Under the pieces are notes generated by a model. The model did not search any database. It saw nothing but the letters and a program-made list of their open reading frames with translations, and was not told where the DNA came from. Made by a program: the position numbers and the translations under genes. Positions 33,743 to 62,692 of a stretch of DNA of 64,000 nucleotides are shown here, one piece after another. Where the stretch lies: positions 186,001 through 250,000 of the forward strand of contig NW_027191414.1 of the NCBI RefSeq assembly GCF_041146345.1, read 5' to 3'. This stretch comes from Neodothiora populina. Taxonomy: Eukaryota. Position 1 is the stretch's first letter, and each line of letters starts with the position of its first letter.

Positions 33743-33784
33743 AGTCCTGCGCGGACGGCGCCACTGCGTGGAGCCGTCCTTTCT
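33743..33784 (+). repeat. 42-bp dispersed palindromic element, copy 1
   Basis: AGTCCTGCGCGGACGGCGCCACTGCGTGGAGCCGTCCTTTCT. Confidence 0.93.
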
Positions 33785-34197
33785 CCTCAAAGAAACCCAC
33801 GAAGTTCGTTCTTCAGGCACTAAGTACTTGGCCCGGACGGAATTCTGCACGGACTCCATTCGATGCGCCTCACTCGATTGTAAGAAGATGCCCTGCGCGG
33901 ACGAGGTGGGCGTGATGCCCGCCTGAAGTCTATACAAAATCTTTTCCACCTGGAACATGAGAGCAGAGATCCTTGGAGACGCTTTGCTCTGGCAATCAGG
34001 GGCTGTTTAAGGAAACGAATAACAGAACCCGTTCGCATTCCTTGTCGCCTGTTTTGGACCTTGTGAGTGAGAATCATGCGTCCGTTTTGCCGTAGAAGAA
34101 AAGTCATGTCGTTCGTTCCCCGGGCGAGTATCTGGAGGAAAGAGGCCTTGGTGAATTCTGTGGCGGAAGAAGTTGGGGTGAAGAGTCCCGGGAGACA

Positions 34198-34239
34198 AGA
34201 AAGGAGAGCTCCACGCAGTGGCGCTGTCCGCGCAGGACT
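34198..34239 (-). repeat. 42-bp dispersed palindromic element, copy 2
   Basis: Reverse complement reads AGTCCTGCGCGGACAGCGCCACTGCGTGGAGCTCTCCTTTCT. Confidence 0.93.
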
Positions 34240-34338
34240 GTTTATATGGCTTGGGCATTGGATAGGTATATGAACCAATTCACTATATGGCAGAGACGAT
34301 GATCAAGTGATGTACACCCTCGTCTGACTGCCGTAGAA

Positions 34339-36186
34339 TTACGAAGGCACGGAGTAATTGGGCACCGTGATCCAGACAGACATGTACCATACAATACCCC
34401 GCAGCACCAGCGTCCACCATGCCTCTTCGATCTGGATGGATTTGACCTCGATTTGTTCTGATGCGTGCAGTATCTCGTTGGTGCGTCTGACGATTAGGTC
34501 TAAGTTATCGACGAGCGTGTGGGCGTACTCGCGTAGGAAATCATGAGGGCCGGCGCCGAACCTGTCACCTGTCAAGTTCCGGGGATTTTTCTCTTTTGAT
34601 GCTTCGAAAAAGGAGACGGAAGTGGCGGTGATGTGAGCGCCAATGATCGCAGTGATGTTCACGTTGTTTGGAGATTGGAAGTATCTATCTGTGACGCCGT
34701 GGATGGATCGCAGCATGCGGAGGAATTTAGACTTGTCCGTGATACGCTTGTCTTTTAAGTCGTTCAAGTCTCTGACGCGTCTGCTGACCATGGCTTCGTC
34801 CCATTCGCACGAGAAGTCCGCCTTGTGGTAGTGACTCAACGCAGTCAGATCGAACAGGACATCCCGTAAATGAGGAGTGTCTTTTCCTGGTAGTGCAACA
34901 GAGTCCTCGAGTCGCCTCAACAAAACCCTCCGGAACTCCCAGCCGAGGAATGTTGATGTGACTTGCAAACAGCGCATTGGATACACAATTCGATTGACAT
35001 GACTGTACGCCCCAGGGACGAATGGTGAGGCGAGAGCTAGAAGGTCTGATAATGCGATGTTGCTAGGTGAAGGGATAGGTATCGTCCAGATCTGATTGAT
35101 AATCTCCATCTGGGTGAGCGCCTCTACTTGTTGGTGTGCAACGCCATATTTGAGAAATGTGACCCTGACTAAGTCCCGGCTCTCTTCGAGAGTGGCGCCA
35201 GTGACAGGGCTGTCCAGGAGGCCCAAGCCGCCGTCGCCCGGTATTATACCGCATGCCATCTTGTCGGCAAGGGCATTCGGGATACTGACGTCGAAGGATG
35301 ATACCCGCTCTGTTGCTGGTCCTTCACCGTTGCGTCTTCGAATCGTGACCGAAACTTCTCTCAGGTCATTGGTATACTGGAAAACTGGACCGACGCCACG
35401 AGCTAGCGTCGAAGTCAGATTGTGCCCGTTTCCTTCTGCACGCATAAATCCTTCGTTGAGACGTAGGTCTAACCACCTCATACCAAGGCGATGAGCTACG
35501 ACGATGAGGTCACCCAAGGTACTCGTAGCCAAGGGCCTTGTGATCTCGGGTGTCATCAGGTCCCAAGTATGCTCGAGGTACAATACTCCGATGTTGCTCG
35601 CCGTGTCGGATGAAGTTGTGCTATCGTGATCCAGAACATTGGATTTTACCTGTTGTATGTGCAGGTTGCGCAAGAACTTGATCCACGACACTTGATCTTC
35701 GAGGGAGTCGACCGAATGACTCGAGCGCAGTAGAGCAGAAAGTACTGCTTTTGGATTCAGTAGAAGCAGACCCGATCGTAGTGATAAAAACCACCACTTC
35801 GCTCTGCTAAAGTTGTTTAAATAAGGATCATGACTCTCAAAGGTTTCCATAAGTTCGATGGATGAAGAATCATCGCCAATATCAAAGACCTCGCGAAGAG
35901 AAGATCCAAAATGTGTCAGAGATACAGCAGAGCCTTTTCTACGGACTGCCATGTCCTTGTCATATATGATTATCTGGGGCGTGGTAAACTTGGTCTCGAA
36001 ACGAAACTGACTCCAACGCCAGCTGAGGCGGGTGCGTCGAGACCATGGACCAATGACAGAGTCTTGACAGCGTCTGTAGCCATCTGCTGTGCCGAACATG
36101 GCCTGCAGGAATTGTGCAGAGGCGATGACGAGAGCGACGACGGCTACAAAGAGACCTGTCATGTCAACATTGTCGTCTACCTTCAT
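34339..36186 (-). CDS. modin-like fungal hypothetical protein; ORF ends at a probably premature TAA (homologous-looking frame continues to TGA at 34303)
   Basis: N-terminal VAVVALVIA..Q.LQ..FGTADGYRRC..SVIGPW..TRL.WRW.QFRFET.FTTP, then VSWIKFL, TWDLMTPEITRPLATSTLGDL..LGMRW..RAEGNG and EAWWTLVLRGIVW. These resemble, from memory, the family annotated as modin. Confidence 0.68.
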   Translation of the reverse strand: MKVDDNVDMTGLFVAVVALVIASAQFLQAMFGTADGYRRCQDSVIGPWSRRTRLSWRWSQFRFETKFTTPQIIIYDKDMAVRRKGSAVSLTHFGSSLREVFDIGDDSSSIELMETFESHDPYLNNFSRAKWWFLSLRSGLLLLNPKAVLSALLRSSHSVDSLEDQVSWIKFLRNLHIQQVKSNVLDHDSTTSSDTASNIGVLYLEHTWDLMTPEITRPLATSTLGDLIVVAHRLGMRWLDLRLNEGFMRAEGNGHNLTSTLARGVGPVFQYTNDLREVSVTIRRRNGEGPATERVSSFDVSIPNALADKMACGIIPGDGGLGLLDSPVTGATLEESRDLVRVTFLKYGVAHQQVEALTQMEIINQIWTIPIPSPSNIALSDLLALASPFVPGAYSHVNRIVYPMRCLQVTSTFLGWEFRRVLLRRLEDSVALPGKDTPHLRDVLFDLTALSHYHKADFSCEWDEAMVSRRVRDLNDLKDKRITDKSKFLRMLRSIHGVTDRYFQSPNNVNITAIIGAHITATSVSFFEASKEKNPRNLTGDRFGAGPHDFLREYAHTLVDNLDLIVRRTNEILHASEQIEVKSIQIEEAWWTLVLRGIVWYMSVWITVPNYSVPS

Positions 36187-37128
36187 CGTTCCTTTTCGCA
36201 AGTGGTATCTGTGGAGAGGAGGCCGGACGAGATGGGTCTAAATATGCGATAGTGATCTTCCTGCAAAGACGAGAAAGCAAGGACAGAGCAAGACATCTCG
36301 AATGTGCAAAGGAAGTACATATCAGTGCCCTGGAGGGTGGACAGCAAGTCACAGAGGAGGCCCCTCAGGCAAGCAGTGTCGACATTGCATGTTGTCTTAA
36401 TATAAAAATGGGCTGAGCTGGCAGCTATCTGGTTGCTGCAAGTAGTAGCTGATAGATGCCCCACGCTTTATTGGCCACAGGATCGGACGTCACATCTCGA
36501 AGCACGCCTTGCAGCCTGAAGGTCCTTCGCACATGGGTCAGGACTCTTGTGGCTCGATACACCCTACCTGAAATGGAATAGCTCGGCTAGATGACTATTT
36601 CCAGGCGCAGGTCGCAGGCCGACTATGTTTACATAAGGTAGCCGGACCCCACTCTGGCTGCGGACGGCACCAAGCCCTTAGAGATGCATGGCACGAGGCA
36701 TCATAGTCTCACCGTCAAGGAATATGGCAGCCTGCGAGGATCGTCATGGTCTTTGCCGAGATCTAGCAAAGTGGTTAGAAAGCAAAAACTGTAAGAGATG
36801 TCTAAGAGAAGAGGACAGGAAGTGGGTGGCTGAAGTAATTGATGGTCTGTGCATCGCCGGGACTTGAGTGCCGGCCCCGGATCTGCAGGCCAAGATTTCC
36901 ATTATATCGTAATGTGGGGTAATCCTAAAACCGGCATGGCCCGAGCTTTGTTTGGGAATGGACGGGTTTCGGTTTCAGAAGGAGCTGCTACAGCAAGGAA
37001 GGAACACAATCCCTCAAGCACTTCTCTCTCGTCACGATACAGCACCCCCCTCGTAGAAACCCATACAGCAGAGTCAGCCGGTCTGGCACAGCCTATGGTG
37101 TGTTTTCACTCTCCCACACATGAGACAG

Positions 37129-37195: not shown

Positions 37196-39748
37196 ATGTC
37201 GCTCCTTACCAACGAAGACTTTACCATCTACCAGCTCCGGGCTGGCTATCTGCAGCACATCAAAGACGGCGTGGGCGAACGCCTGATCAACCTGAATTCT
37301 TCAGTCCTCAACAACCCTACCTTCCGGTCTGCAGGCTGGTCCACAGCGGGCGCCGAGATCAAGCGCACCTACTCGCCGCCCATACCGACCGCCATCACTT
37401 CGGAATACTTCCAGGCTCCTCAGAGGTCAGCTGGTCTGCCTCTACACGATGAGGAGGATGAAGGAGGTATGGTCACAGGCCAGGGCAGTCAGGAGACGGT
37501 GGGGATAATGCCGCACAACAAGCGAGCGCGACGGCGGAAAGAGCAGCTCGTCGAGGAGGAGGACAGCAGCGATCTCAGCGACGACAGCGACGAAGATGAA
37601 GAGAGCAAGCGCGCCGCGCAACAGATCAAGTTCAACAAGATGCCCGTGCGGAGTCGCGCTGGCTCGTCACCGCAGAGAGGCTCGCAGGCAGAGGAGGTGT
37701 CGCTGGTCATCACATCCCCTTCACGGCCGCCTGACGCCCAAGGCATCCGTCGCGCATCCCTGTCCAGCGCAGACGTATACAGGACCAGACCGAGGAGAGA
37801 CACGACCACCAGCAGCGAATTCTCCTCGGAAAACGACTTTGACGCTTCCGCCTTCCGCAGACAGAAAGTGCAGACGCGGCAAATCAAGAACAACCACATG
37901 TTCCATACGCGAATTGATGAAGAAGAGCAGGAGGACGGAGACTCTGATCTCGAGGACGACGACGTCGGCGAGGCCTCGGATCTGTCCGATGAGTTCGAGG
38001 GCACTGCCGAGTCAGCGTCGTTGCTCGCAATGGGCGGTCCTCTGGTCGCTGTAGACACTCTCGAGGACAGCCCCGTCAAGGCGATGCCGCATATTCCCCC
38101 TGCCGTCACTCCGACTGCCTCCTCGTCTTCCCCCAGGCGACAGAACCGACTGCCTCCTCCCGCATTGCCCCGTTTGCCCACCGGCCGTCCCATAAGCTAC
38201 GTCCAGCCTGTCAGTCTGCTGTCGAAGGCTCTGCGTGGCACGGGTCAAAAGGCCGAGGATCCCTTCCGTCAATTCGCCCAGCTCTCCGGCAAAGGCGAGT
38301 CCAACCCCTTGTGGATCAAGATCCATGCCCCCTTCTCGACCAAATCTACGAAGCCCTTTGAAGTGCCGCTACGTCGGAGCACCAACGAAGGCGCTCCGAT
38401 TACTGTTGCCGAACTCATCGGCCTCAGCCTGTGGCGATACGCCGAGGAGAAAAGAGAACCGCCCATCCAGGACACCGACATGAACGTCAATCGCTGGACA
38501 TTGCGCATGGTCGAGGATGACGAGGTCGACTTTGATTTCCCTGCACTCACCCGCACTCGACCTGTCGCCGACTTTACTTCAAACAACAACCGTCCGCCAA
38601 TGCGCCGAGCCAGAGACAAGCCCTGGGATGAGTTTGCCCTTGTCCGTGCCACTGACGAGCAGTTCAAGGAGAATGAAGAACAAACTCCCCAGTTCACCGA
38701 GCAGCAGTCACAGCCGCCGCAGCAGGCAAACAGCTCTCTGACTGTGACTCCTGCCCCCGACCCATCCCAAGCCGCTGCTCCACCGCCCACAATGCGCACC
38801 AGCATCGACGCTGCCGCGGCACCATCTTTCATACCCAATGCGAACCCCATCACCTCGTCTTTTGCTCCCATGGCTCGAAAGCACTCGACTCTCCCTCTGT
38901 TGGATGCGCCTGCCGCTCAGGCTCCCCGCTCGACTCCACGGACCGGCGTCTCCACTACAGTGACGATACATTATACCGACCCACAATCATTCCAGACGAC
39001 ACAAGTCCCTGTTCCTACGACCTCAGACACCTATCTTGCCGAGCTCTTCACTTTGGCTTGTCAACGGCTGAACTTGGACAAAGCTCTGCATGTTCTGAAA
39101 GTGAAAGGTACACAGACTGTAGCACCGCAAGATCGCACAGTCGAAGCACTCGGATCGCGCCTTGACCTAGATCTCGTGCGTCGTCGCTTTGTTGGTGTGG
39201 GTGACGGCTGGGGTACACACTCCGGCGCCGGCAGTCCCGGCAGTGAATCCCCGAACGCCCCTCTTCTCCTCACTACCGGCACAACGCCCAAACAAAAATC
39301 GCGAAAGGCCTTCATGGGCCTCCAGAGCTCAAAATCATCCAGCGACATGAACGCAGCAGCAATTTACGGACTGAACAACAGCTCAGGCAAACGCTACCTC
39401 GTCATCCGCCGCCAGCCCCTGTCCTTCGCGCCCTCCCATCCCCGCATCATCGCACTCGACTCCGAGTTCATGCACATCATGCCCGCCTCCTCCGCCGACG
39501 CACTAAACGCAAACATCGACGCCAACATGGCGCCTCCAGCAGGCAAAACAACCAGCGTGCACCTCAGCAGCGTCGTCGGCTGCAAAGTCTCCCGCAAACA
39601 CCCCAAAGTTGTGCGCGTGCTCGTGTATCGCGAGAAGGAAACCAAGCGGTACGACTTCGAGGCTGGCACTAAAGACGAGGCCGCAGAGATCGCGGGCGTG
39701 ATCAATCGGGGGATGGTGAGGTTCAGAGATACGGATGTCGTGCTATGA
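37196..39748 (+). CDS. SIN1: TORC2 subunit Sin1/Avo1 (stress-activated MAPK-interacting protein)
   Basis: MSLLTNEDFTIYQLR..YL..IKDGVGERLI; CRIM region TVAELIGLSLWRY..NRWTLRMVEDDEVDFDFPAL; PH domain VIRRQPLSF..HIMP..ETKRYDFEA. Single 850-aa ORF. Confidence 0.92.
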   Translation: MSLLTNEDFTIYQLRAGYLQHIKDGVGERLINLNSSVLNNPTFRSAGWSTAGAEIKRTYSPPIPTAITSEYFQAPQRSAGLPLHDEEDEGGMVTGQGSQETVGIMPHNKRARRRKEQLVEEEDSSDLSDDSDEDEESKRAAQQIKFNKMPVRSRAGSSPQRGSQAEEVSLVITSPSRPPDAQGIRRASLSSADVYRTRPRRDTTTSSEFSSENDFDASAFRRQKVQTRQIKNNHMFHTRIDEEEQEDGDSDLEDDDVGEASDLSDEFEGTAESASLLAMGGPLVAVDTLEDSPVKAMPHIPPAVTPTASSSSPRRQNRLPPPALPRLPTGRPISYVQPVSLLSKALRGTGQKAEDPFRQFAQLSGKGESNPLWIKIHAPFSTKSTKPFEVPLRRSTNEGAPITVAELIGLSLWRYAEEKREPPIQDTDMNVNRWTLRMVEDDEVDFDFPALTRTRPVADFTSNNNRPPMRRARDKPWDEFALVRATDEQFKENEEQTPQFTEQQSQPPQQANSSLTVTPAPDPSQAAAPPPTMRTSIDAAAAPSFIPNANPITSSFAPMARKHSTLPLLDAPAAQAPRSTPRTGVSTTVTIHYTDPQSFQTTQVPVPTTSDTYLAELFTLACQRLNLDKALHVLKVKGTQTVAPQDRTVEALGSRLDLDLVRRRFVGVGDGWGTHSGAGSPGSESPNAPLLLTTGTTPKQKSRKAFMGLQSSKSSSDMNAAAIYGLNNSSGKRYLVIRRQPLSFAPSHPRIIALDSEFMHIMPASSADALNANIDANMAPPAGKTTSVHLSSVVGCKVSRKHPKVVRVLVYREKETKRYDFEAGTKDEAAEIAGVINRGMVRFRDTDVVL

Positions 39749-39896
39749 TAGTGTGCTTCTTTCCTTTCTTGTATGTAACGGTCTTCAGGACCTGTTTTTG
39801 TGACGCGAAATGATAAACCCCACTTCCTTCCCAATGTCTCTCGTCTTTCTTCCCTGTGGAAGCAACTCATCCTACCATGCCTACACTCCGAGCGCT

Positions 39897-39938
39897 AGTC
39901 CTGCGCGGACGGCGCCACTGCGTGGTGCCTTCCTTTCT
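39897..39938 (+). repeat. 42-bp dispersed palindromic element, copy 3
   Basis: AGTCCTGCGCGGACGGCGCCACTGCGTGGTGCCTTCCTTTCT. Confidence 0.93.
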
Positions 39939-40015
39939 GCATCGCTATGTCACACGTCTCCTATACATCTGAGATCTGTAGGGCAGACACATCCTGCTTT
40001 CCACGTGAGAGTGTT

Positions 40016-40057
40016 AGTCCTGCGCGGACGGCGCCACTGCGTGAAGCCCTCCTTTCT
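40016..40057 (+). repeat. 42-bp dispersed palindromic element, copy 4
   Basis: AGTCCTGCGCGGACGGCGCCACTGCGTGAAGCCCTCCTTTCT. Confidence 0.93.
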
Positions 40058-40660: not shown

Positions 40661-40672
40661 AAAATGCAAAAA
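40661..40672 (-). terminator. RNA polymerase III oligo-T terminator of the 5S gene
   Basis: The minus strand reads TTTTTGCATTTTTTT directly after the 5S 3' end. Confidence 0.7.
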
Positions 40673-40790
40673 CGTACAGCAGCTGGGATTCCCACGTGGT
40701 CACCCACCGTAGTACTAATCAGCCGGTCAACTGCTTATGTCTGGCAGAGCGGACGGGATGCCCAGTTCTCAGCTGCCTGTGGCCGTACGT
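40672..40790 (-). rRNA. dispersed 5S rRNA gene
   Basis: Minus strand reads ACGTACGGCCACAGGCAGCTGAGAACTGGGCATCCCGTCCGCTCTGCCAGACATAAGCAGTTGACCGGCTGATTAGTACTACGGTGGGTGACCACGTGGGAATCCCAGCTGCTGTACGT (119 nt). Helix I (ACGTACGGC/GCTGTACGT) pairs; CCCGTCCGCTC, TTAGTA and GGGTGACC are conserved 5S motifs; a T-run follows. Confidence 0.95.
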
Positions 40791-41104
40791 GGATTACTAC
40801 TACATTGTACCAGTAAATGTAGTTAAAAAATGAGAGTGCTGCAGAGTATGTACGTATGGATTGGCCTTTCGTACTGATACTTCACGGGACGAGTGCAGGA
40901 ATGCTGTACTTCAGGTTGTCGATTCGCTTGAGAGGACTGCGGTGCGTAAAAGAGTATATATACTCAAACCTGTAGGAGAGAAAATCAGTTTATGCAAACA
41001 GAAACGAAAAGAAAAGGAGAGCCGGCGCAACGCAGCAGCGCTGTCTTTACAGTATTATCTTCGACTTAGAGGAGTTTACTAGAGTCAGAGAAGCACGGAG
41101 ATGA

Positions 41105-41146
41105 AGAGAAGAGGGCACCACGCAGTGGTGCCGTCCGCGTAGGACT
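41105..41146 (-). repeat. 42-bp dispersed palindromic element, copy 5
   Basis: Reverse complement reads AGTCCTACGCGGACGGCACCACTGCGTGGTGCCCTCTTCTCT. Confidence 0.9.
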
Positions 41147-41307
41147 AACGTTCGAGCCCCACGGACAGCAGAATCAGCAGGGCCATGATGTAAAAGTAAA
41201 GTATACAAAAATGACATTTGTGTAAAAGAAACCAGGTGGAAAACGCCTGCGCTATGCTATGGTATACATATCTCTAAGTTATGTATCATACACGATTCTA
41301 AAACACT

Positions 41308-41362: not shown

Positions 41363-44300
41363 CTATGCGCTATCGACCACTTCCGCGAACCAGCCCCTCA
41401 GTGCAGAGGCCAGGACGCCGGGTAGTTCCCGCACATCGCGCACGACGAGATAGTATCCGAAGGGGAAACTGTCGAGGTACTTGACGGTCTTGACGCTCAG
41501 CTCGCCCGTCTCGGGGTTCTTGGAGAAGGTGGCTGTTTGCAAGTCGAGGATGGACGAGGATTTCGTTGCGGCGGGTTTTCCACCGGGAGTGGTCGTGCCG
41601 GAGGTTGGGACTGAAGAAGCCGGAGAGGCGGAGTCGACGATGACGAAGACGATCATGATTCGCTCTGCGTGTGCTTGACGCACTAGTTGGCGGATCGACG
41701 GGTGGTCCTCGCATACGCCGTCCGAGATGATGAGTTGTAGCTGCCAGAGCTCTTGGGTTGCGCTTCCGCCTTGCTTGGCTGCGCGCGCCTCGCGGAACAT
41801 CTCCAACGACCGCTCGATTAGTCTGTGGACATTCGTTCTTGTCTGCTCGAAGGAGAACTTTCGAATCACTTCGGCGCCGGCTTCAGATATGAATGGAGAG
41901 GAGAATTCGTGTGCGGTGGAAACGTCGTCGCCGAAGGCCACAATGGACAGTTCTCCGCTCTCGAGGATGGTCAATGCGCGTGCTACGAGCGCCATGGTCT
42001 CGAATGCGAGCTCGTTTGCCCCTCCTTCTGCCATTGACTTCGAGTCGTCGATCGCGAGCATGATCTGGTAGCTGCGCTTCGAAGGGACGGATCGGCGCAT
42101 CCAAATCTTGTCGCGTTTATACGACGAGGCGATGTAAGGAATGATACGCTTGATGTTGAGACGTTTGCCGGTGCGGTAATCGCCGCGCATCTTTGTGGCG
42201 GTGGTTGGGGAGAGGATGAGACGGAGGTGTTCGGCGAGCAGAAGAGACAAGGTTCGAGTCGATGTCTCGTGTGCTGTGTAGATTTCGCGGGCAGCATCGA
42301 GTGGCATAAGTGAGCTTGTGTCGGTAGGATCGTTGGATAGATGAGTCGAGGTTAGAGCGGTATCAACTTCATCTACATCGCGGTCTTCGTCATCCATCTC
42401 GTCCGTGAGATCTTGCCTTTCTGCATCCTGATCACCAGACTTGGGATCGCCGACAAAGGCACTTGGGATATCCTGGGCGGCGTCGCTTGCAGAGGGGTTT
42501 TGGGCTTCATCGACATCTTCGTCAGCGTCGCCGTCGCGCATCTCAACATCGTTGTCTGGTTTGTACGGCTCAGCGGCAGCATCCCTTTCATCATCTTCGG
42601 GCATGAAGTCTTCACGCTTCTCTTGATCGTTAGTCGCTATGCCCGCGTCTTCGTCGATTGCTTTGGCTTGATCTTCAGTCGCCGCACCCATAGCTTGAGC
42701 GTCAGCTTCATCGGCTTCGTCTTGAAGATGCTCAAACTCCGCGTCTGCCATGTCCATGTCCGGCTGATCTTCTTGACGTTCCTCTTTCTCGGCCCGAGCG
42801 TCCTGGATTTGTCGCTGCTGCTTGTACCACTTCTCGAGTGCGTCTCCAATCTTCTTGAATGGTTCGCTCTCTTTGTTGCCATCATCTTGCTGCTGCTCGT
42901 TTTCCTCGTCTCCTTGGGCGGCTTGATCTTGTTCTGCTTGACCGCGTTCACCCTCTGCGCCTGCGACTTGTTGCTGCTCGGGCTGCGCAGCTTCGGTACC
43001 GGATTCTTGCTGTGCAGCACCAACATTCTGCTGCTTTTGTTCGTCTTGAGGTTGCATGTTGTCCAGCCCTGAGCCCTGTGCCTCACTTTGTGCGACATCC
43101 TCCGCAGCGTTGGTTTCGTCGTTGCGACGGTCGTCTTGTAGAAGGCCTTCGTCATCCTCTGGAGCTTCTTCTTCTGCGTCAGCATCTTCACCTGCATCTT
43201 GGGTTTTGTCCATCTGCTCCTCATCTTGAGTTTCTTCTTTCTCTGCATCAAGTTCAGGCGGCGCGTCTTCGGGAATGTCGGGAGAACCAGCGTCTTCCTC
43301 TGCACCAGCAGGCTCCTCAATCTCGCCTTCGGTCTCAGGGAATTCTTTCTGTTCCTCCTCGCCCATGTCCGCGTCTCCCATATCCTCCATGCCGGACTCA
43401 TCGCCCTCATCTTCGTCTTGACCGTCCATATCGATGTCATCAGGAAGATCAAGGTTCTGTTCTTCCTGCAAATGTGGGTCTGTCTTTTCGATTTCGTCCT
43501 GAGGAGCAGCGTTGTGGTCTTCACCTTCCTCTGCACCCATCTCTTCATCTTCGTCATCACCATCTTCGCCCTTCTCTTCCTTCTCCTTCTTTTCTCCATC
43601 TTCTCCCGCACCTACGTTTTCCTCATCTTTCTGGCCTTGACCTTCTTCACCTTCTTGCTCCTTCTCGGCGTCTTTGCCACCATCATCCCACATCTTCTCG
43701 TCGACTGTGCTAGGACCAAGGTCGTCGACGTCGCCGACTTCTTCTTCCATGTCCTGCTCTTCGTCGTCGTTGTCACTACCTTCTCCTTCTTCGTCGTCCT
43801 TCTCTGGTTCATCTCCCATTTCGCCCTCCATGTCTTGATCGGCCATGTCGACGGCGTCCTTTTCGTCCTCGATGTCATCCTTGTCTGTGCGATCGTCCTT
43901 CTCCTGCGCCAACTCGCCGAGGTCTTCGTCGTCTTCGATGTCCTTGCTGATATCCTCTCCACCTTCTCCTTCGCCAAGTCCCGTACCGCCCTCGAGCTTT
44001 TCGTTTTGGTTGTCATTCTGGCCGGCAGACTTGTCAGAGGGAGTACAGAATCCGCTTTGCGCTAGAGTTGTGAAAATTTTGGCGAGGTGGACGGAGGTCT
44101 GTGAGATTGCCGTGTGGAGGTTGTTGAGGCGGGATGCGAGACTGGCAGTAATGGATTGATATTGTTGAAGTAGAGGCACGTAGGAATGTAGTACAGCAGT
44201 GGCTGGCTTCATCTGTGCAGAGTGAAGCTTTTGTAGCTGGGAAAGAACGGTCTGGAGACGAGCAGTGACGTGAGGCAACCTGAGAGACTTGAGGGCTGTG

Positions 44301-53300: not shown

Positions 53301-56185
53301 GACATCTGGATGCCTTCGTATAAGGCTCTACGTAAAGCGCAGAGAGGTGCGACGTCCTTTGCGTAGGTCAAAGCGCGCGTCAGAGTTCGCAGACTGAAAT
53401 GAGGCTTCTGGCCTGCACCATCGACAAGTAGATTCTGCTCATTCAGTTTCTGTATAGCTTGATGTAAGTGACACACATCTGCAGCAACAGTTCTGTCCAT
53501 ATCGCCATCTTTTCCAAGGTAGACCTGGACAATACTGAGCAGGCTCTGGAAGTCTCTGTCGGGGCTCTCGACGTATAACTCGGTGAATCGCGAGCGAATG
53601 CCAAGTGGTAGGTCTTTCTTGCCGACATCAGTTGCAGGGTTCATAGCAGCAAAGACTCTGAAGTTCGGGTGAGCTTTAATAACATCTACACTGCCGGCTT
53701 CACTCAGCATGATAGAAGGTGAGCTTGTGTCGAAGAGGTCTGCCAGTGCTTCGAGAGTGTCCGGGCTTGCAAGGTTTATTTCATCCAGCAAAACCCAGTC
53801 ACCATTCCTGACGGCTTTGACAATGTTACCCTCGACAAAGGCAAAGGCAAAGGCTTCCTGACCTCCAGCATTCAAACGATGCTCGAGGCTTTTGACACTT
53901 TGTGCAAACTTTTCCCATCTCTCCTTCACAGACGAAGACAACACTGACTCAACACGCCGTTTCTTGTTAGGTTGCCCTTCGGCCTGGCGAGCGGGTGATT
54001 GCGATTCGTTCTGCTGGGAAGTCTGGCGGTATTGCTCTACCATACCCAGAGCTGTAATCCAGAGCTTGCAGACACGGGTCCATTGGGATTTGGCCACACA
54101 CTTGTTAAGCATCTCCAAGAATTGCGCATTCTTTTTATAGGAAAAGGTAGCAGCGAAGAGGTCGTCAAACTCTTCCTTCATGGGCAATATGAGGGAGCGA
54201 GCACTGACAGGCTTGAAGCCTCCCAGTAAGTCACCACTTTCAGACTGTTGAGACAAATTGAAAGGCACAAGCTTCTTTCCCAACTGGTCTGCGAGATGCT
54301 GCACACTCGTCGTCTTTCCGGTGCCTGTCTCACCTACCAAGAGTAGGGGCTCGCGTTGAGCGATTGCAACGCCGACGCGGTCCATCAGACGTAGTGTATG
54401 CGCATTGGTCGAAAACGGTCTCTTGTTGGTGAGGCCGGTGATGCCCTTGCGCTGGCTGCGAGGGAACAGATTCCGGCCGATGCGGACACTCTGGGCTTCT
54501 GCCTTGTATGCGATGGTGCGGTCACTTAGCAGATGGCTTCGACGCTGAGGGTCGATCTGGAGATGCTGCGCAATGCAGGAGGTCAAGGCCGTGTATGCGT
54601 CACCTTCCGGAAGTGCACCAGCAAAGCAATCTACAGCATCGAGGAAGATCTGGTCTAAGTCACTCGTAGACAGAGTGGTCTTGTCGCCGAGCATGCTGGC
54701 TACTCTGGCACACCATTTAAGAAGATCGCGAGGATTCACAGCACGCATGACACCCGTTCTACTCTTACTTTCCAGATTCGAGACACGTTTGAGATGCTGC
54801 AGCTCCTGGAAGACTGTGACAAACTGTGCGGAGTACTCATGGAGCGATGGATATAGACCGACAATGATTGCCTTGAGTTCATCCGAAGGAGACATGTCGA
54901 CGTGGACGGTTTGCCAGTGCCTCGCACCCAGCAAATTGTAGGCTGGCCTGGTCCCGTGACCGCTTGCGCTGAGATTGGTGCGCATGGTTGCGATGATGCG
55001 GAAGCCACGAGCAGCATGGATGGTCTGCCCTCGGCTCGGGATTACGAGCTCCCTCCTCTCGATCAACGGTAGCAGGGTGCTGATGACATCGTTGGGTGCT
55101 CGATCGAGATCTTCAATGAAGACCCATCGTCCCTCCATCACAGCGGTGGTGAGAACACCGGGTTGCCACATGAAGGTGCCCGGGGTGCTACCAGTAGTGT
55201 ACATACCAATCAGCAACTTTGCATCACTCTGCTCGTTGAGGTGCAGCGTGACCATGGAATGCATTTTGTCAAGCTGACGCGCGGCATGTCGGACAAGGAG
55301 AGTCTTTCCAGAACCGGGTAGACCAGTCAGGAGCACAGGTCTGGGGGTTTTCAGCGTGTGAGCGAGTCTGTGTAGGTTTGCCAGCGTTGTTGGAGAGTCT
55401 ACTATGGTAGAAGCGGCGGGCTCTGCAGTACGAGCGAGACGTGGGAGCAATATGCCTGCAATGCAGGCGGTGGCCGGATGTAACAGATCTGCAGAGATCC
55501 TTTTGAGCTGGACAGAAGTGTCCATGGCCCCTGCCTTTGCGCGTTCGGCAGCGTCCATCTTCTCCATCAATTGCTTCGCCCGTTGCTCTTCCCACAGCGT
55601 GAGGAAACGATAATCAATGGTCTTGTCCTCCCATTGACCTTCCGTCGCTCTTTCGCCCACATGACACTCGAGCATGGCTTCGACAGCGGCATCGGCAGCA
55701 TTCAGACAGAGTGACAGCACCCGGACGGCCAGGTATCTGGCAGCACCGTTGGCGTGCTGCAGAAATGCTTGCACCACGTTGAATGGAACATATTTGGCAA
55801 ATGTTTGACGGTCGAAGGTCAGGATGCGGAACAAAGCCAACAGGTACTCCTCGGATCGAGTGTCCAGGTCAGCGGGAAGCTCCCGCGATTCGTGTTGTCT
55901 CTGCAAGAAAAGCTGGGCGAATTCGGCGACCAAAGGTGCAAAGGGCAGTAATCGTGCATAGGCAGCGAGAATGGAAATATAGTCGCTGGAGTCCGAGAAA
56001 GAGGCGCAACAGTGAGGGATGAGTGACTCGGCATGCGTGAGGATCGTGTCCGTATATCGCCTGTCTAATGCGGCGCGTGTGATGTGGTTCAATACTAAAT
56101 CATCGTCCTGAGTCTGCAAAACATCGAGCAATTCGGCAGGCAATTCTGCGTGTCGCAGTGCCTGGATTTCCCACGTGACATCCAT
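41363..56185 (-). CDS. MDN1: midasin (Rea1/Mdn1) AAA+ ATPase for 60S ribosome maturation, 4940 aa, no introns evident
   Basis: Six Walker A motifs (GLPGSGKT, GETGTGKT, GPTSAGKT, GETGCGKT, GSPGVGKT, GPAGSGKT), a long linker, a D/E-rich region and a C-terminal MIDAS domain (GDYRTGKRLNIKRIIPYIAS..DKIWMRR..DDSKSM..IISDG). Confidence 0.98.
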   Translation of the reverse strand: MDVTWEIQALRHAELPAELLDVLQTQDDDLVLNHITRAALDRRYTDTILTHAESLIPHCCASFSDSSDYISILAAYARLLPFAPLVAEFAQLFLQRQHESRELPADLDTRSEEYLLALFRILTFDRQTFAKYVPFNVVQAFLQHANGAARYLAVRVLSLCLNAADAAVEAMLECHVGERATEGQWEDKTIDYRFLTLWEEQRAKQLMEKMDAAERAKAGAMDTSVQLKRISADLLHPATACIAGILLPRLARTAEPAASTIVDSPTTLANLHRLAHTLKTPRPVLLTGLPGSGKTLLVRHAARQLDKMHSMVTLHLNEQSDAKLLIGMYTTGSTPGTFMWQPGVLTTAVMEGRWVFIEDLDRAPNDVISTLLPLIERRELVIPSRGQTIHAARGFRIIATMRTNLSASGHGTRPAYNLLGARHWQTVHVDMSPSDELKAIIVGLYPSLHEYSAQFVTVFQELQHLKRVSNLESKSRTGVMRAVNPRDLLKWCARVASMLGDKTTLSTSDLDQIFLDAVDCFAGALPEGDAYTALTSCIAQHLQIDPQRRSHLLSDRTIAYKAEAQSVRIGRNLFPRSQRKGITGLTNKRPFSTNAHTLRLMDRVGVAIAQREPLLLVGETGTGKTTSVQHLADQLGKKLVPFNLSQQSESGDLLGGFKPVSARSLILPMKEEFDDLFAATFSYKKNAQFLEMLNKCVAKSQWTRVCKLWITALGMVEQYRQTSQQNESQSPARQAEGQPNKKRRVESVLSSSVKERWEKFAQSVKSLEHRLNAGGQEAFAFAFVEGNIVKAVRNGDWVLLDEINLASPDTLEALADLFDTSSPSIMLSEAGSVDVIKAHPNFRVFAAMNPATDVGKKDLPLGIRSRFTELYVESPDRDFQSLLSIVQVYLGKDGDMDRTVAADVCHLHQAIQKLNEQNLLVDGAGQKPHFSLRTLTRALTYAKDVAPLCALRRALYEGIQMSFSTLLDKESEARILPLFYTYLFSKVKGVEAMLKKPFTKPSDSHAYVWEGPYWLRQGSLPVEEQPHYIVTPFVRRNLDNLIRASFTRRFPVLIQGPTSAGKTSMIEYLAKRSGNTFVRINNHEHTDLQEYLGTYVSGSDGRLTFQEGVLVKALREGHWIVLDELNLAPTDVLEALNRLLDDNRELLIPETQEVVRPHENFMLFATQNPAGLYGGRKVLSRAFRNRFLELHFDDIPVEELNIILEKRTGVPPSWCKKIVKVYRELSVLRQEERLFEQKSFATLRDLFRWALRGATTQEELAMHGFMLLAERVRKPEERQVVKKIIEKTLGPPRITIDESKLYGGQSKLIQPYLAQAQTSGVVWTSAMRRLYVLVATAIQNNEPVLLVGETGCGKTTVVQMLAEAVQKELGIVNAHQNTETGDLIGAQRPLRNRAGIEQQLRQMLAALPYPEVVETLNNGSIEEALEVLDKVKKATPQADVQVAGLLTQIELARPRLRALFEWADGSLVHAMKTGQYFLLDEISLADDSVLERLNSVLESSRSLLLAEKGSLDSFVTAQPGFQFFATMNPGGDYGKRELSPALRNRFTEIWVPALSDLDDIHLIIQSKLKSEAAKHAGVLVDFARWFNKRFNTSAASSISIRDTLAWVEFINRQQEHGLLFSVIHGAAMVYIDTLGANPAALLAINPGTVHYERTQCLDELSRLLQVDASSIYNAPIEIQLTSQYLTLGSFSLPVVSEATNDAGFTFQAPTTLSNATRVARALQLTKPVLLEGSPGVGKTTLVTALAAAIGMPLTRINLSEQTDLMDLFGSDIPVEGASAGTFAWRDAPFLRAMKAGEWVLLDEMNLASQSVLEGLNACLDHRGEVYISELDQTFQRHPEFRLFAAQNPHHQGGGRKGLPASFVNRFTVVYADVFQKEDLLMICRKSFPDLAVDTLQPTIEFIDRLDTLTQTRQIGALGSPWEFNLRDTLRWLGLVTSQDGLLQGGREAGDFLTTVITQRFRSPKDRALVRNLFEGYLGTSNGPNNMFHNISPAALQVGLGLLERNELISFQTQHECQIQARGVDYKPLLPILESVMIGIQRRWPILLVGPAGSGKTAVLEKLAGIVGADMVTFSMNADVDSMDLVGGYEQAEPKRAVNAFLERFTKFIESHIISQLGQNATSKSSTLVQQLLQLVDDAKKVMASADGLVQDALSQIVQLLGSNVHQFPTPAEALLAEAQKLASMPVQIDRAQFEWMDGTLVQALEQGKWLVLDNANLCSPAVLDRLNSLLEPGGKLIVNEHTDANGQAKIVEPAEGFRIFFTVDPKYGELSRALRNRAVELFMLQEESPQHDKAQLILGAESRMHRLRNAGLLAQTSPDVSEQEIRFQADIIADHLAHVDLSVLQSFASQLSLELYNVPAPVLQESFTRLMQIKNMQHLSQNGVADNLLSLQTVNPLNNVPLLLTVEGIQSSLLTTVATCQDIEIEILRMEAILAAVISISVPRREQTKLQRSANPGKSVNAGKELTAGVYPFLKNFVVNLREFIRQAFENENTTLTRPVAQTIKSYIRFWRNLLHLVDQQYVDEATFSSYLEIAQRLDLASQTSRSEIAEDGSLGLTIQSRFNEDIQSLQRASELQNANTMTALWRTLRPETPKTYEQVLQLAELGKMADVFDTAAWRFEAPIVQLLQLRDAFTRTIHLVVVGAEEASSLLSSLKEAMIGLAAPETQNELDIVVTKSFVSHFGLQLDGICQLFSIASPSDFSPSLQLQLEKASLLALQPTKNLKTGSVPVLQKLGYFIGFYGSSNKPLAIAEDLHTSILSGVKKAGEVPLSCLQLLKTEVEVLGQLVAGNSQHLDGDRITSLQSVLRQLVGDLAQALQVGCDSEILSDWASWALHATTDGRNAQSPTFAGRAKDTSIYEVRTRQLLSEPIKYLSNASGTLADAARAWLSFAMGALTLYIPTRAFDPALRPLLERDMFRSAHSTLSTQLRALYHFYQVSGQYSHVRVEAISKDIEELGEEPKIQEIARPQVSELANLQGEFTALLRALAPLTDNKKSGDLVENAKDEVLRQNVAMVKVRLSEGYKGYTDITGPVLGFLHALEIGFALAEAASTSAIDEKSVVVRKLTPLLSAKPELWQNENALIAVEQAKDSGVKIHALSSFATARGLLSNGRLSKSAWQTIDHVFDTFYQQWSVELQAGQQDTAQKKSLYRYRGDAELEDEIDEEEYRELFPEYDAENDKNGDHVKPSGRVQGLAPNLADAMHFIFKISGTKAEDLLSLMKKAANILSHTSKASRLDEAERSLTPLLMILLQEEAELLNGTSFTQRKYNIYTSPNLSEAEKTIALMKRIKARFSEIQAVWPEHATLGDVLRTSDEVLEFGHTEPVAKILTKVEKLHSYVHEWQVVASKEYTAAPLYDDLTNLLVSWRRLELSTWARMLDMEAEKCHEDAKNFFFLAYESIVVVPLQLGQTPAAMKLHVQELIKTLQGFFLSTGLGQFASRLAMIGDLARYVEQRSTVVPSLEIVHTALTNFIAYMKPYTPLVAEAVQKGRQGLEKNMKDIIQLASWKDTNIDALRQSAKSSHRRLFRVIRKFRDVLARPAEGIITAGLPDLPLAETATALGLRKIQAEIDDSAKSLCEENLPSWNERPARFRNLVATINVMHNKSSVADAAIDSASELHVFVSDTENLASQLRKATPTLLTEENKEMVKHLKSRKRKLFADVLKELRQMGFKSNLSSDVLARQDSLHAVLAAIPVLEGAEAEKHLYRLLHLMPKVRESSWEHSDDLTGAEVARSVALLESMLLVAIQQRNTLSSVSHDREILDNLIEQTVNLWSENAIEATTNTPAVNYTLVDAIMCLPSVIVAAAKIIKMHEQLSGIDCTDILFGFGRFESFWQTQKDKWISLPELPDGVTSSAHVKILEECKQTLNDPAFDLAPAMEKFPFLGATLKQVQLWSTVDTTDVGKKALTAGNEIQLAEFSQSVCEFVDTILGSVQDVEAPLSVLPQSTEDALWVVNEGRTLSTALKSLRLPHVTARLQTVLSQLQKLHSAQMKPATAVLHSYVPLLQQYQSITASLASRLNNLHTAISQTSVHLAKIFTTLAQSGFCTPSDKSAGQNDNQNEKLEGGTGLGEGEGGEDISKDIEDDEDLGELAQEKDDRTDKDDIEDEKDAVDMADQDMEGEMGDEPEKDDEEGEGSDNDDEEQDMEEEVGDVDDLGPSTVDEKMWDDGGKDAEKEQEGEEGQGQKDEENVGAGEDGEKKEKEEKGEDGDDEDEEMGAEEGEDHNAAPQDEIEKTDPHLQEEQNLDLPDDIDMDGQDEDEGDESGMEDMGDADMGEEEQKEFPETEGEIEEPAGAEEDAGSPDIPEDAPPELDAEKEETQDEEQMDKTQDAGEDADAEEEAPEDDEGLLQDDRRNDETNAAEDVAQSEAQGSGLDNMQPQDEQKQQNVGAAQQESGTEAAQPEQQQVAGAEGERGQAEQDQAAQGDEENEQQQDDGNKESEPFKKIGDALEKWYKQQRQIQDARAEKEERQEDQPDMDMADAEFEHLQDEADEADAQAMGAATEDQAKAIDEDAGIATNDQEKREDFMPEDDERDAAAEPYKPDNDVEMRDGDADEDVDEAQNPSASDAAQDIPSAFVGDPKSGDQDAERQDLTDEMDDEDRDVDEVDTALTSTHLSNDPTDTSSLMPLDAAREIYTAHETSTRTLSLLLAEHLRLILSPTTATKMRGDYRTGKRLNIKRIIPYIASSYKRDKIWMRRSVPSKRSYQIMLAIDDSKSMAEGGANELAFETMALVARALTILESGELSIVAFGDDVSTAHEFSSPFISEAGAEVIRKFSFEQTRTNVHRLIERSLEMFREARAAKQGGSATQELWQLQLIISDGVCEDHPSIRQLVRQAHAERIMIVFVIVDSASPASSVPTSGTTTPGGKPAATKSSSILDLQTATFSKNPETGELSVKTVKYLDSFPFGYYLVVRDVRELPGVLASALRGWFAEVVDSA

Positions 56186-56568
56186 GTTTCGGATGGAAAC
56201 GAGGGACCTGGATGATCAGTAGAGTCGCGCGACCGATTCGTGGTAAGTCATGGAGTATTCCAAGTGGTTAATCGCCACACACGCACTGGGTGGGCTTGTA
56301 TTATTTCATTTCGAGAATATTTCGTCCGAAAATCGAATATAATTTGCGGCAAGCGCAACGAGCATCTCGGAGGTTTCGACGCTTCGCCGCTGGCTTGGCA
56401 GAAATGTCTGTGCTTTGCGGACTTTGAGATTTTGGGAAGTTGCAGGAAGAGCAAGAGGAAGGTGCAGATGCGAATAATACTTCGGACTGCCCCCATCGAG
56501 TCTCTCTGTGCAAGCGCTGATTATATCACCGACACTGTCAATCCACCACAACATCAACCACCGCCACA

Positions 56569-60700: not shown

Positions 60701-61053
60701 AAAGAGACGTCTGGTTCATCCTGCATGAAGACGAAATCGACCGCAATGCCACGTCTGCTGCTGCAGGATCTTATGCCGCTGCTGGCAGAGGCCAAGGACG
60801 TGAGACGGGGGTCTTGAGAGAAAATGGCAATGGTGAGAACAGAGGCTTACTCGAAAGAGAAGCGGAGAGTGGGATAGGGCTGGGAATTGTCGACGGCAGC
60901 GATGACGAGGAAGCAGACGACAGGTTCGAGATTGGGGATGATGGAGGAGGAGGGGCTATGGAGACCGGAGTCTTGTATGGACGAAATGGGCTTTCTCGAA
61001 GTGGTGGTGTAGACGACGACGACCACGAAGGAAGACGGATCTCAGGCATATAG
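57790..61053 (+). CDS. CLC chloride channel/transporter with CBS domains (introns 57966-58033, 58752-58814, 58968-59022, 59138-59188, 59281-59334)
   Basis: [78 protein letters not shown] and GIYESWI motifs, plus a CBS pair. Confidence 0.93.
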
Positions 61054-62107
61054 AACGCCTCGAATAATCTTACGAGTTATCCTCTTTTCTCTCAGAATGA
61101 CATCTGCAGTCTTCAGATTCGCCATTTTCGTTTCATGACCATCGGTCCCATCATCGACGAAAACCTCGGTTCGACGCGGATGCCTGACCACTGCAATGAG
61201 AGCCTTCTGAACTTCCCTAAATCGTGCTCGATTACACTCCGTTTCGTTCACGCGCTTTGGTGGATGCAGGGTAACCCTGTTCATGAAACATGTAGACCAC
61301 CTAGTCCCGACTCTGCAGAATAAGGCAGCCACTGTCCGTACGAGCGTTGATATAGCTCAACCATTCCGATATCTCTTCGAAGAATCAGCATAGTGCTGCT
61401 GCTCACGTGGAGAATCGAAAGTATAGATATAGACTGTGGGACTGAATACCATGCCATCCGTGGTAGGGTATTTGCCCGTAACGTATCTCTCCCAATACCT
61501 ACTCTTCTCTACCACGAGAACATGCCACAAATACCCCAAGTAACGATGACACCCTAGACACACGTTTCACTCCATTACCACGATCACGCACACGGGGCTA
61601 AGACCAATGAGATAGCATCCAAAAAAAGCACAGCTGCCACACGGTCAACGAACAGTAAGCTATGGACCATATGTACAATGACGTAGCGACGTGCTACACA
61701 CGACCCCGCCACGCGCGCGCATCCCGCCTATTTGTTTACCTCAAGCCAATGTGCTACGTCGAAGCGACAGGCTAGAGGCGACGAAAGACAGGGGGTTTTG
61801 ATTGCGCTGTAGATCAGTGATGCGTAGGTAAGGGAGGTTAGGTAGGTGGCGGGATATAAGCCATGTGCAAGCCATGTGTGGGTACTTTGTAACTAGGCAA
61901 GGTAAGGAAGGGACGGAGGGTGGGTATGAATAGTTTGTTGGTTTTCCTTCTGTCTCGTAGTCTGCTCAAGCATCTGGTTTACTTGAACTATTCTCTAGGT
62001 ATGTGATACTCCTTCCGCATCTCTATCCAGCGAACTGACACCGCCGAAGTCATCTCCCACCTCATAAGCGACACAAGCGCTTCGTCAACAAAGCAAAAAC
62101 ACAAAAA

Positions 62108-62471
62108 ATGGCCATCGGCAACGACAAGAAGTCCGGCGTCCAAGGCGGCGTGACAGCCGTCACATCCACAGTCGGCAATGGCGTCGGCGGCCTGCTGGGC
62201 ACAGTCGGCGGAGTCGTTGGTGCAGCTGGCCGAGGCAGTAAGTTGCTCTTCTCCCTGCATCCCCTCTGTTCCCGACTTCTGTATCCTCAGTGTTCATGAG
62301 TAGGTACTGATAAGCAAAATAACAGTCGGCAACACCGTCACAGGCGTGACTGGCGAATACGGAAAGCCGGTCGGGAACGCGCTGACGAGTCTGACGGACG
62401 GGATTGAGAACGGCACGAACAGTGTTGCTAAAGGCGTCGAGGATGCTGGCAAGGGCAAGAAGACCCGGTAG
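62108..62471 (+). CDS. small Gly/Thr/Val-rich fungal hypothetical protein (intron 62238-62325)
   Basis: Spliced protein MAIGNDKKSGVQGGVTAVTSTVGNGVGGLLGTVGGVVGAAGRG-IGNTVTGVTGEYGKPVGNALTSLTDGIENGTNSVAKGVEDAGKGKKTR*. Strong AAAAATG context; intron is GTAAGT..ACTGAT..ACAG. Confidence 0.78.
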
Positions 62472-62650
62472 ATTCCGGATATGTCTTTCTTCTTTTCTCT
62501 CTTCCGGTAGCGAGCTGCGAAGGTGTGGCCTTGAGGACTGTTGAGAATGACTTTCATCATACTCCATGATAGCTATGATTGTCTGTTTGTTTTGAAACGT
62601 GGATCTCTCTTTCCACGTTTTCTATTTCTGCTGTACCTGGAATCCTTGCG

Positions 62651-62692
62651 TAAAGAAGAGGCTCCACGCAGTGGCGCCGTCCGCGCAGGACG
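62651..62692 (-). repeat. 42-bp dispersed palindromic element, copy 6
   Basis: Reverse complement reads CGTCCTGCGCGGACGGCGCCACTGCGTGGAGCCTCTTCTTTA. Confidence 0.9.

What the first reader, a model, noticed from the sequence alone, without database searches (positions are those of the whole stretch)
33743..62692. Unexplained 42-bp REP-like palindromic element dispersed six times in intergenic DNA of a fungus
Seen: six near-identical copies of AGTCCTGCGCGGACGGCGCCACTGCGTGGWGCCNTCCTTTCT at 33743(+), 34198(-), 39897(+), 40016(+), 41105(-) and 62651(-). None lies in a CDS, flanks are largely unrelated, and I saw no transposase in the window. The core has two abutting palindromes (GTCC-TGCGC-GGAC and GGCRCCAC-TGC-GTGGWGCC) followed by a pyrimidine tract. 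On the other strand the main loop is C-GCA-G. Established: GNA triloops form very stable single-stranded DNA hairpins. Short extragenic palindromes clustered between convergent genes and in inverted pairs are the hallmark of bacterial REP/REPIN elements mobilised by HUH (RAYT) enzymes; I do not know a described fungal equivalent. Inference: at about 1 copy per 10 kb this could be a genome-wide family of minimal non-autonomous elements or a cis-acting structured motif.
Basis: partly seen in the sequence, partly recalled or inferred. Interest (0 to 1): 0.88.

Follow-up and report, generated by a model that had tools for sequence, protein, structure and literature searches.

The report
Polar double-hairpin at fungal gene ends
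About sixty near-identical copies of a 32-base double hairpin with a T/C-rich tail sit just behind genes of one fungus, almost always pointing the way the gene is read and mostly between genes that run head-on; this looks like a bacterial-style transcription stop signal in a eukaryote, but no function has been shown.

Summary
The six copies are real. The conserved unit is a 32-nt double hairpin plus a variable ~12-nt pyrimidine tail. The 24-Mb Neodothiora populina genome holds 59 near-intact and about 5 decayed copies in 36 clusters: about 1 per 400 kb, not 1 per 10 kb.

Copies occupy convergent gene gaps (23 of 29 versus 18 of 75 controls). They lie nearer the gene they are sense to (27 of 28), and opposed copies always point tails inward (7 of 7). 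In 10 homologous pairs, flanks differ by 36% and cores by 5%, which indicates constraint.

REP and Helitron marks, target-site duplications and a mobilising HUH enzyme were not found. No match turned up in Rfam, prokaryote, viral or metagenome contigs, or the papers searched, and the scan holds no look-alike on other DNA.

Best reading (0.45): a lineage-specific polar Pol II pause/termination aid with hairpin-plus-U-tract grammar, spread by duplication. One copy lies in an intron, so it cannot be an obligatory stop. No RNA data were available.

The parts
33744..33775 (+). 32-nt double-hairpin core, 466 nt behind the stop of the kinase gene, sense to it; pyrimidine tail 33776-33787
33890..33902 (+). 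half copy (hairpin 1 only, rest decayed)
   Evidence: (E 0.033)
34207..34238 (-). core, 101 nt behind the stop of the 632-aa minus-strand ORF, sense to it; tail points at the + copies
39898..39929 (+). core, 150 nt behind the SIN1 stop, sense
40017..40048 (+). tandem core 119 nt further on; upstream flank still resembles that of the first copy (58% identity)
41012..41053 (-). worn tandem copy behind the midasin copy
   Evidence: 14.8 bits, E 0.015
41114..41145 (-). core, 218 nt behind the midasin (MDN1) stop, sense; carries an A-T pair where most copies have a G-A mismatch
62660..62691 (-). core that breaks the main rule: between two + strand genes, tail pointing at the 3' end of the left one; no minus-strand gene found behind it
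30253..33278 (+). protein kinase gene (two long ORFs), left partner of the first convergent gap
34339..36237 (-). 632-aa ORF without a Pfam match, right partner of the first convergent gap
37196..39748 (+). SIN1/AVO1 (TORC2 subunit), left partner of the second convergent gap
40671..40790 (-). dispersed 5S rRNA gene lying between the inward-pointing copies; not a general associate of the element
41363..56215 (-). 4950-aa midasin-type ORF (AAA repeats seen in the translation, C-terminal VWA domain; the name MDN1 is from recall), right partner of the second gap
62108..62471 (+). small glycine-rich intron-containing gene whose 3' end the 62660 copy faces (read from the sequence, no Pfam match)

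Best explanation
A lineage-specific, orientation-dependent 3'-end element for RNA polymerase II. SHOWN: a 32-nt double hairpin followed directly by a U/C-rich tail. It was copied in tandem, in inverted form and between chromosomes together with short flanks; the flanks then decayed while the core stayed nearly fixed. Copies sit a median 202 nt behind a stop codon, sense to that gene, mostly where two genes converge, so that a shared gap often holds one set for each gene. INFERRED: when Pol II transcribes it in the sense direction, the nascent hairpins and the weak pyrimidine-rich RNA:DNA hybrid (probably with a sequence-specific reader, since the loops are invariant) make the polymerase pause. 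After poly(A)-site cleavage this pause favours release and limits read-through into the oncoming gene. Without prior cleavage it would only slow the polymerase, which would explain why a copy is tolerated in an intron.
For: Convergent gaps: 23 of 29 element gaps versus 18 of 75 control gaps, Fisher p 3e-7 (automated gene calls). Among units at a gene's own 3' end, 28 of 34 are convergent where about half would be expected (p 1e-4, hand count). Nearer to the gene it is sense to in 27 of 28 convergent units (p 1e-7). 7 of 7 mixed clusters run + then -, tails inward (6 of 6; the seventh). Pyrimidine tracts behind 64 control stop codons are not strand-biased (93 sense, 83 antisense), so target composition does not give the polarity. 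Constraint: flanks 36% different versus cores 5% in 10 homologous pairs (141/396 versus 16/320); 15 of 32 positions invariant in 54 copies; variation concentrated at 7 sites that show all four allele combinations. Grammar: hairpin then tail is that of intrinsic terminators (PMC13675443, passages seen), and the terminator scan flags the two window copies with an unbroken 8-bp stem. Yeast Pol II can be released by template sequence alone (PMC7615648, passages seen). TAYRTA, a poly(A) efficiency motif (recalled), is commoner before the element than after it (16 versus 7 in 40 groups; weak). Ribosome-biogenesis genes, which are strongly transcribed (recalled), flank 7 gaps.
Against: No expression, 3'-end or polymerase data were seen, so the function is not shown. 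One perfect copy lies sense inside a 259-nt intron of an annotated PEX11-type gene. About five loci have no sense gene behind them (window 62660; L045, the + pair of L046, L047, L055; L062 unclear), and one convergent copy is nearer the opposite gene (L040). Some copies lie only 14-70 nt behind the stop, probably inside the 3' UTR. The tail is not a pure T run (mostly 4-6 T of 8), and sequence-directed Pol II release in yeast needs long T-tracts and no hairpin (PMC7615648). Only about 60 of many thousand gene ends carry the element. It was not found at the SIN1 locus of relatives, including one 84% identical over the C-terminal half. Covariation is weak (score 0.078 versus 0.067 in shuffles, 13 of 500), and a variant that breaks one pair of hairpin 1 occurs on three chromosomes.
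Confidence: 0.45

Rival explanations
1. A minimal selfish element, behaving like bacterial REP/BIME units or mitochondrial double-hairpin elements. An unknown enzyme or a repair route copies it, with short flanks, into transcribed single-stranded DNA or through cDNA, which sets the strand. The core looks conserved because only intact copies are recopied, and convergent gaps are favoured because they hold no promoter.
For: Copies moved between chromosomes: rare core variants are shared by loci on three chromosomes, and flank remnants are shared between chromosomes (sum score >=28 in 22 of 1402 pairs versus 2.9 expected; this null is lenient). Local tandem and inverted duplication (7 of 18 tandem pairs with flank Z>2). 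Clusters lie toward contig ends (27 of 35 in the outer quarters, KS p 3e-4). Element gaps are longer than control gaps (median 1254 versus 816 nt), and the intron copy sits in an enlarged intron. Lineage-restricted. About 5 decayed copies exist.
Against: No mobiliser found: no Y1 transposase, no Helitron-type hit (uninformative control, one PIF1), no geminivirus-type Rep (uninformative control), pogo TIRs unrelated. No target-site duplication (1.59 versus 1.43 +/- 0.11). No tail of diverged copies in 400 kb of control DNA. Old duplicates kept intact cores in place while their flanks decayed, which selection on copying alone does not explain. A safe-harbour effect does not explain 27 of 28 polarity or tails inward.
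Confidence: 0.25
2. A structured 3'-UTR RNA element read by an RNA-binding protein, controlling stability, localisation or translation of a set of mRNAs enriched for ribosome-biogenesis and housekeeping genes.
For: Sense orientation; copies as close as 14-70 nt to the stop; invariant loops; arrays of two or three. Stem variants are more often G-U-compatible on the sense strand (6 versus 3; not significant). One compensatory pair change, T-A to C-G in 6 copies, probably one event. Own genes include SPB1, NOC3, UTP14, DHR1 and midasin: 5 of about 36 versus 2 of 130 control genes, p 0.006 (post hoc).
Against: It does not explain the excess of convergent over tandem 3' ends (28 of 34), the intron copy, or the copies with no sense gene. 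NOG1 and LTV1 face the element from the antisense side. Distances run up to about 880 nt, and TAYRTA lies more often before the element.
Confidence: 0.2
3. A DNA-level polar site: a protein-bound or extruded-hairpin barrier, or an origin-like element, that manages replication-transcription conflicts or cohesin at convergent gene ends, comparable to Reb1/TTF-I terminator boxes (recalled).
For: Opposed clusters with fixed polarity resemble fork traps (recalled). On the template strand both loops begin with G and end with A on a C-G pair, the form of very stable DNA mini-hairpins (sequence seen; stability recalled). The core holds an imperfect direct repeat CTGCGYGG at 17-nt spacing. Folding does not favour either strand.
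Against: Only 36 clusters, uneven (none found on the 2.8-Mb contig C3, none on the rDNA-bearing contig C11), too few for origins. Orientation follows the nearest gene, not the chromosome. The compensatory change argues for pairing more than for double-strand read-out.
Confidence: 0.1

Closest known systems
Bacterial REP / BIME / REPIN elements with RAYT (PMC2817692, abstract and passages seen)
   Same: Short GC-rich extragenic palindromes in tens of copies, clustered, with inverted pairs, lineage-specific; REPs are reported to assist termination.
   Different: No GT(A/G)G head, two abutting hairpins plus a pyrimidine tail, no rayt-like gene in the genome, opposed blocks rather than alternating arrays, nuclear eukaryotic genome.
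Bacterial intrinsic (Rho-independent) terminators (PMC13675443, passages seen)
   Same: GC-rich hairpin followed at once by a U-rich tail, behind genes in the sense direction, one set per gene in convergent gaps.
   Different: One fixed sequence copied about 60 times rather than diverse hairpins; a second hairpin in front; tail interrupted by C; the polymerase is Pol II; one copy is intronic.
Mitochondrial double-hairpin / repetitive hairpin-forming elements (PMC2800124, passages seen; the Allomyces and fission-yeast cases are recalled)
   Same: Short, often double-hairpin, intergenic, patchily distributed, thought to be mobile with no known enzyme.
   Different: Nuclear; no copy was found on the two AT-rich, apparently mitochondrial contigs; near-strict polarity to Pol II genes; conserved pyrimidine tail.
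Pol II pause and sequence-directed termination signals of yeasts: T-tract spontaneous termination (PMC7615648, passages seen), inverted repeats near poly(A) sites (PMC6420913, abstract seen), fission-yeast downstream pause elements (recalled)
   Same: Cis signals near gene 3' ends acting on Pol II.
   Different: The T-tract and inverted-repeat signals are AT-rich and the T-tract route needs no hairpin; none of them is a dispersed family of one GC-rich 32-nt sequence.

Membership tests
REP/REPIN (RAYT system) | GT(A/G)G head directly 5' of the palindrome | tested here: not met
   4 of 54 copies on the sense strand, 0 of 54 on the other; feature from PMC2817692
REP/REPIN (RAYT system) | Y1/HUH transposase gene flanked by inverted copies | tested here: not met
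   No PF01797 match in the genome, control rang in 6 of 14; longest ATG ORF inside the 7 inverted clusters is 103 aa
REP/REPIN (RAYT system) | Many extragenic copies, clustered and in inverted pairs | tested here: met
Helitron (HLE1) | 3' hairpin followed by CTRR, insertion between A and T | tested here: not met
   CTRR directly after the antisense core in 8 of 54, within about 15 nt after the sense core in 3 of 54; feature from PMC11417382
Helitron (HLE1/HLE2) | RepHel-encoding partner in the genome | tested here: inconclusive
   No PF14214 match but the control rang nowhere; a single PIF1 match, read as the cellular gene
MITE / TIR transposon end | Target-site duplication and shared interior between inverted ends; identity with TIRs of an autonomous element | tested here: not met
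   No TSD excess; interiors of different loci not alignable; 22 of 35 clusters scored as single copies; pogo TIRs unrelated
Intrinsic terminator (works like) | GC-rich stem directly followed by a U-rich tract on the sense strand behind a gene | tested here: met
   (28 of 54 copies have >=5 T in the first 8 nt)
Intrinsic terminator (works like) | Polymerase pausing and release at the site | not testable with these tools
   needs nascent-RNA or reporter data
Known structured RNA / self-cleaving ribozyme | Match to an Rfam model; closing helix between the flanks as in a three-way junction | tested here: not met
   No Rfam hit at gathering score or at E<=10 on the core; upstream/tail pairing no better than permuted pairs, p 0.56-0.95
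Mitochondrial double-hairpin elements | Location in mitochondrial DNA | tested here: not met
   No pattern match on contigs C9 and C10, which are AT-rich and look mitochondrial
Catalogued fungal repeat (Dfam/Repbase) | Match to a deposited consensus | not testable with these tools
   neither library is offered

The most novel reading that the evidence does not exclude
A eukaryote has recently evolved, from a small self-spreading repeat, a sequence-defined polar terminator for RNA polymerase II that uses bacterial hairpin-plus-U-tract grammar, and has placed it in opposed pairs to insulate convergent, strongly transcribed genes.
Probability: 0.3. Interest if true: 0.9.

Novelty: new variant of a known kind. 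Interest (0 to 1): 0.68.

Why it matters
Pol II termination in fungi is thought to rest on degenerate AT-rich signals and protein factors. A fixed 32-nt GC-rich element with near-strict polarity, about 60 natural replicates, natural variants and natural exceptions (an intron copy, decayed copies) would make hairpin-assisted Pol II pausing and the insulation of convergent genes directly testable with a short oligonucleotide in a reporter. It could also serve as a compact polar insulator for fungal expression constructs. If it is selfish instead, it is a nuclear counterpart of REP or mitochondrial double-hairpin elements that spreads without any mobiliser found here, in a genome with few transposons.

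Tried and rejected
Link to dispersed 5S rRNA genes: the window's inverted cluster encloses one, but of 47 5S matches in the genome only this one and C2:1209569 lie within about 1.2 kb of an intact copy; rejected. tRNA link: 3 tRNA genes in 36 loci, one of them 150 nt from a copy; not general. Three-way junction or ribozyme with a flank-closing helix: rejected; threading by eye onto HDV, hammerhead, hairpin and twister consensus (recalled) failed. TIRs of pogo elements: rejected. Element as an intron 5' end: CTRAY no commoner after than before (22 versus 22); rejected. Polarity caused by pyrimidine-tract strand bias: rejected. The first convergent-gap test used neighbouring gaps as control, which is biased; it was replaced. 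Dropped from the counts: the C6:119459 half-site, which lies inside a 1776-aa ORF, and weak model hits in L031, L034 and L044 (E>=0.015). Expression: no RNA holder listed; the one run laid was probably DNA at low depth and covered none of the copies; no evidence either way. Outside searches without result: 28-nt degenerate pattern, exact matches only, in metagenome, prokaryote-genome and viral contigs; blastn of phages (none) and plasmids (2 hits at E 0.3); covariance model on 72 SIN1 loci of other fungi, 557 kb, best E 1.5 (only the orthologous position is informative at this copy density). A covariance-model search of the whole own genome was not available, so strongly diverged copies away from known clusters may be missed. 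Literature: 10 searches; none described this element and four core strings were found in no full text. Subscription papers and supplements were not seen and could hold a description.
Full report
OBSERVATION. The six copies are at the stated coordinates and strands. Aligning 54 copies from the genome shows a sharply bounded 32-nt core with 15 invariant positions, preceded by A, T or C but never G (0 of 54), and followed by about 12 nt that are pyrimidine-rich but variable. The core folds into two abutting hairpins on either strand, only modestly better than shuffles. Two decayed copies also lie in the window. Rfam finds only a 5S rRNA gene at 40671-40790.

HOST AND COPY NUMBER. The genome has 23.96 Mb in 18 contigs. 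SIN1 homologues place it in the Dothideales, and a named protein record of a gene on the same contig gives Neodothiora populina. A 28-nt pattern with up to 2 mismatches gives 50 matches, and 0 for the reversed control. After fetching 4 kb on each side of every cluster, a weight matrix finds 56 copies and a covariance model adds 3 with small indels. About 5 more are decayed. That makes about 64 copies in 36 clusters, roughly 1 per 400 kb. In 400 kb of control DNA the model found nothing better than E 0.22, so there is no large pool of worn copies. Clusters lie toward contig ends (27 of 35 in the outer quarters; clusters are not fully independent, and telomere repeats were seen at 8 of the 18 contig ends examined).

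POSITION AND POLARITY. Using a coding model trained on this genome, 49 of 57 copies had a sense gene as the nearest coding segment behind them. Pfam checks moved one more locus to sense and showed one to be intronic. Element gaps are convergent in 23 of 29 cases where both neighbours were called, against 18 of 75 control gaps (automated calls, which may include the intronic locus). In a convergent gap either orientation is sense to some gene, so I tested distance instead: the copy is nearer the gene it is sense to in 27 of 28 hand-curated gene-element units, median 202 nt from the stop (the intronic locus and the minus pair of L061 were left out). All 7 clusters with both orientations run plus then minus, tails inward. 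The window shows this twice: kinase / 632-aa ORF, and SIN1 / midasin. Pyrimidine tracts behind control stop codons are nearly strand-neutral (93 versus 83). Exceptions: a perfect sense copy in a 259-nt intron of a PEX11-type gene; the window copy at 62660 and about three other loci that face a gene's 3' end with no sense gene behind them; one locus in a divergent gap; one unclear.

NEIGHBOURING GENES. Own genes include SPB1, NOC3, UTP14, DHR1, midasin, leucyl-tRNA synthetase, an ATP-citrate-lyase-type gene, a V-ATPase subunit and SIN1; NOG1 and LTV1 face a copy from the other side. Ribosome-biogenesis genes make up 7 of about 60 flanking genes versus 2 of 130 control genes (p 0.005). This was noticed after the fact, the denominator is approximate and the class assignment is from recall.

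HISTORY. Tandem copies are 73-157 nt apart, and 7 of 18 pairs keep flank similarity. Inverted partners at three loci do too. Flank remnants and rare core variants are shared between chromosomes. The element was therefore copied locally and ectopically with short flanks. In 10 pairs chosen for recognisable flanks (a choice that works against the result) flanks differ at 36% of positions and cores at 5%. Core variation is concentrated at 7 sites and shows all four allele combinations. I read this as constraint on the core; repeated replacement by fresh copies is the alternative. One compensatory change supports hairpin 1, but overall covariation is weak. The SIN1 locus of 72 other fungal contigs has no copy. 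This includes a contig 84% identical over the C-terminal half; in it and in two Aureobasidium-like contigs the gene behind SIN1 is not midasin. The family seems young at the level of genera.

MOBILITY MACHINERY. The genome has few transposon hits: 3 for reverse transcriptase and 4 for DDE_1 (lower bounds). Two pogo-type copies are 99.6% identical with 46-bp TIRs unrelated to the element. No Y1 transposase was found. The Helitron and geminivirus Rep searches were blank, but their controls rang nowhere. There is one PIF1. No target-site duplication, REP head or consistent CTRR end was found.

MECHANISM. The layout (GC hairpin, then a U/C tail, sense, behind the gene, one set per gene in head-on gaps) is the grammar of intrinsic terminators (PMC13675443, passages seen). 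Yeast Pol II can be released by template sequence, though at long T-tracts and without a hairpin (PMC7615648, passages seen). The intron copy rules out an obligatory stop or self-cleavage unless that copy is inactive. A pause that matters only after poly(A) cleavage fits both the rule and this exception. I put this at 0.45, a selfish minimal element at 0.25, a 3'-UTR protein-binding element at 0.20 and a DNA-level barrier at 0.10. The first two are not exclusive: copying is shown, host use is inferred, and no step of the molecular mechanism was observed.

COMPARISON AND NOVELTY. It behaves like REP/BIME elements in distribution but fails their defining features (PMC2817692, passages seen). It resembles mitochondrial double-hairpin elements in shape (PMC2800124, passages seen) but is nuclear and polar. 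It fails the Helitron end test (PMC11417382, passages seen). Replitrons (PMC10288648, passages seen) have short direct terminal repeats, which I did not test beyond the target-site analysis. Ten paper searches found no description, and the core strings occur in no indexed full text. Dfam, Repbase, subscription papers and supplements were not seen. Earlier notes of this scan show no look-alike sequence.

VERDICT. A real, apparently undescribed, constrained and polar repeat family. Interest 0.68. It is a new variant of a known kind on present evidence, and categorically new if the terminator function is shown.

Noticed in passing
window 40671-40790 (-): Dispersed 5S rRNA gene; the genome has 47 Rfam 5S matches scattered over most large contigs.
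   Followed up: yes
L056:3834-4092 (G000:C15 about 73030-73290): PEX11-type gene with a 259-nt intron that holds a perfect copy of the element in the sense direction.
   Followed up: yes
L047:4300-4800 (G000:C8 about 94400-94900): Several tRNA-like A-box/B-box repeats (boxes recognised from recall) on the + strand, 300-700 nt from two copies; ARAGORN and Rfam call no tRNA there.
   Followed up: no
L159:1570-3379 and L160:1554-3363 (G000:C6 and C14): Two 1.8-kb pogo/Fot1-type transposon copies, 99.6% identical, with 46-bp terminal inverted repeats; a diverged relative on C2 has 64-bp TIRs.
   Followed up: partly
window 34339-36237 (-): 632-aa single-ORF protein without a Pfam match; its N-terminus recalls fungal modin-like proteins (recalled, not tested).
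   Followed up: no
L070, L073, L082 versus window 39748-41363: The gene behind SIN1 differs among Dothideales-like contigs (midasin here, a convergent hydrolase-like gene in L073, a tandem gene in L070 and L082), so gene order changed at the site where the copies now lie.
   Followed up: partly
L034:4075-4190 (G000:C2:1352774): Lower-scoring 5S rRNA copy (56.8 bits) with a weak partial match to hairpin 2 about 40 nt away; probably chance.
   Followed up: partly
window 62108-62471 (+): Small glycine/threonine-rich gene with introns and no Pfam match, missed by ORF listing.
   Followed up: no
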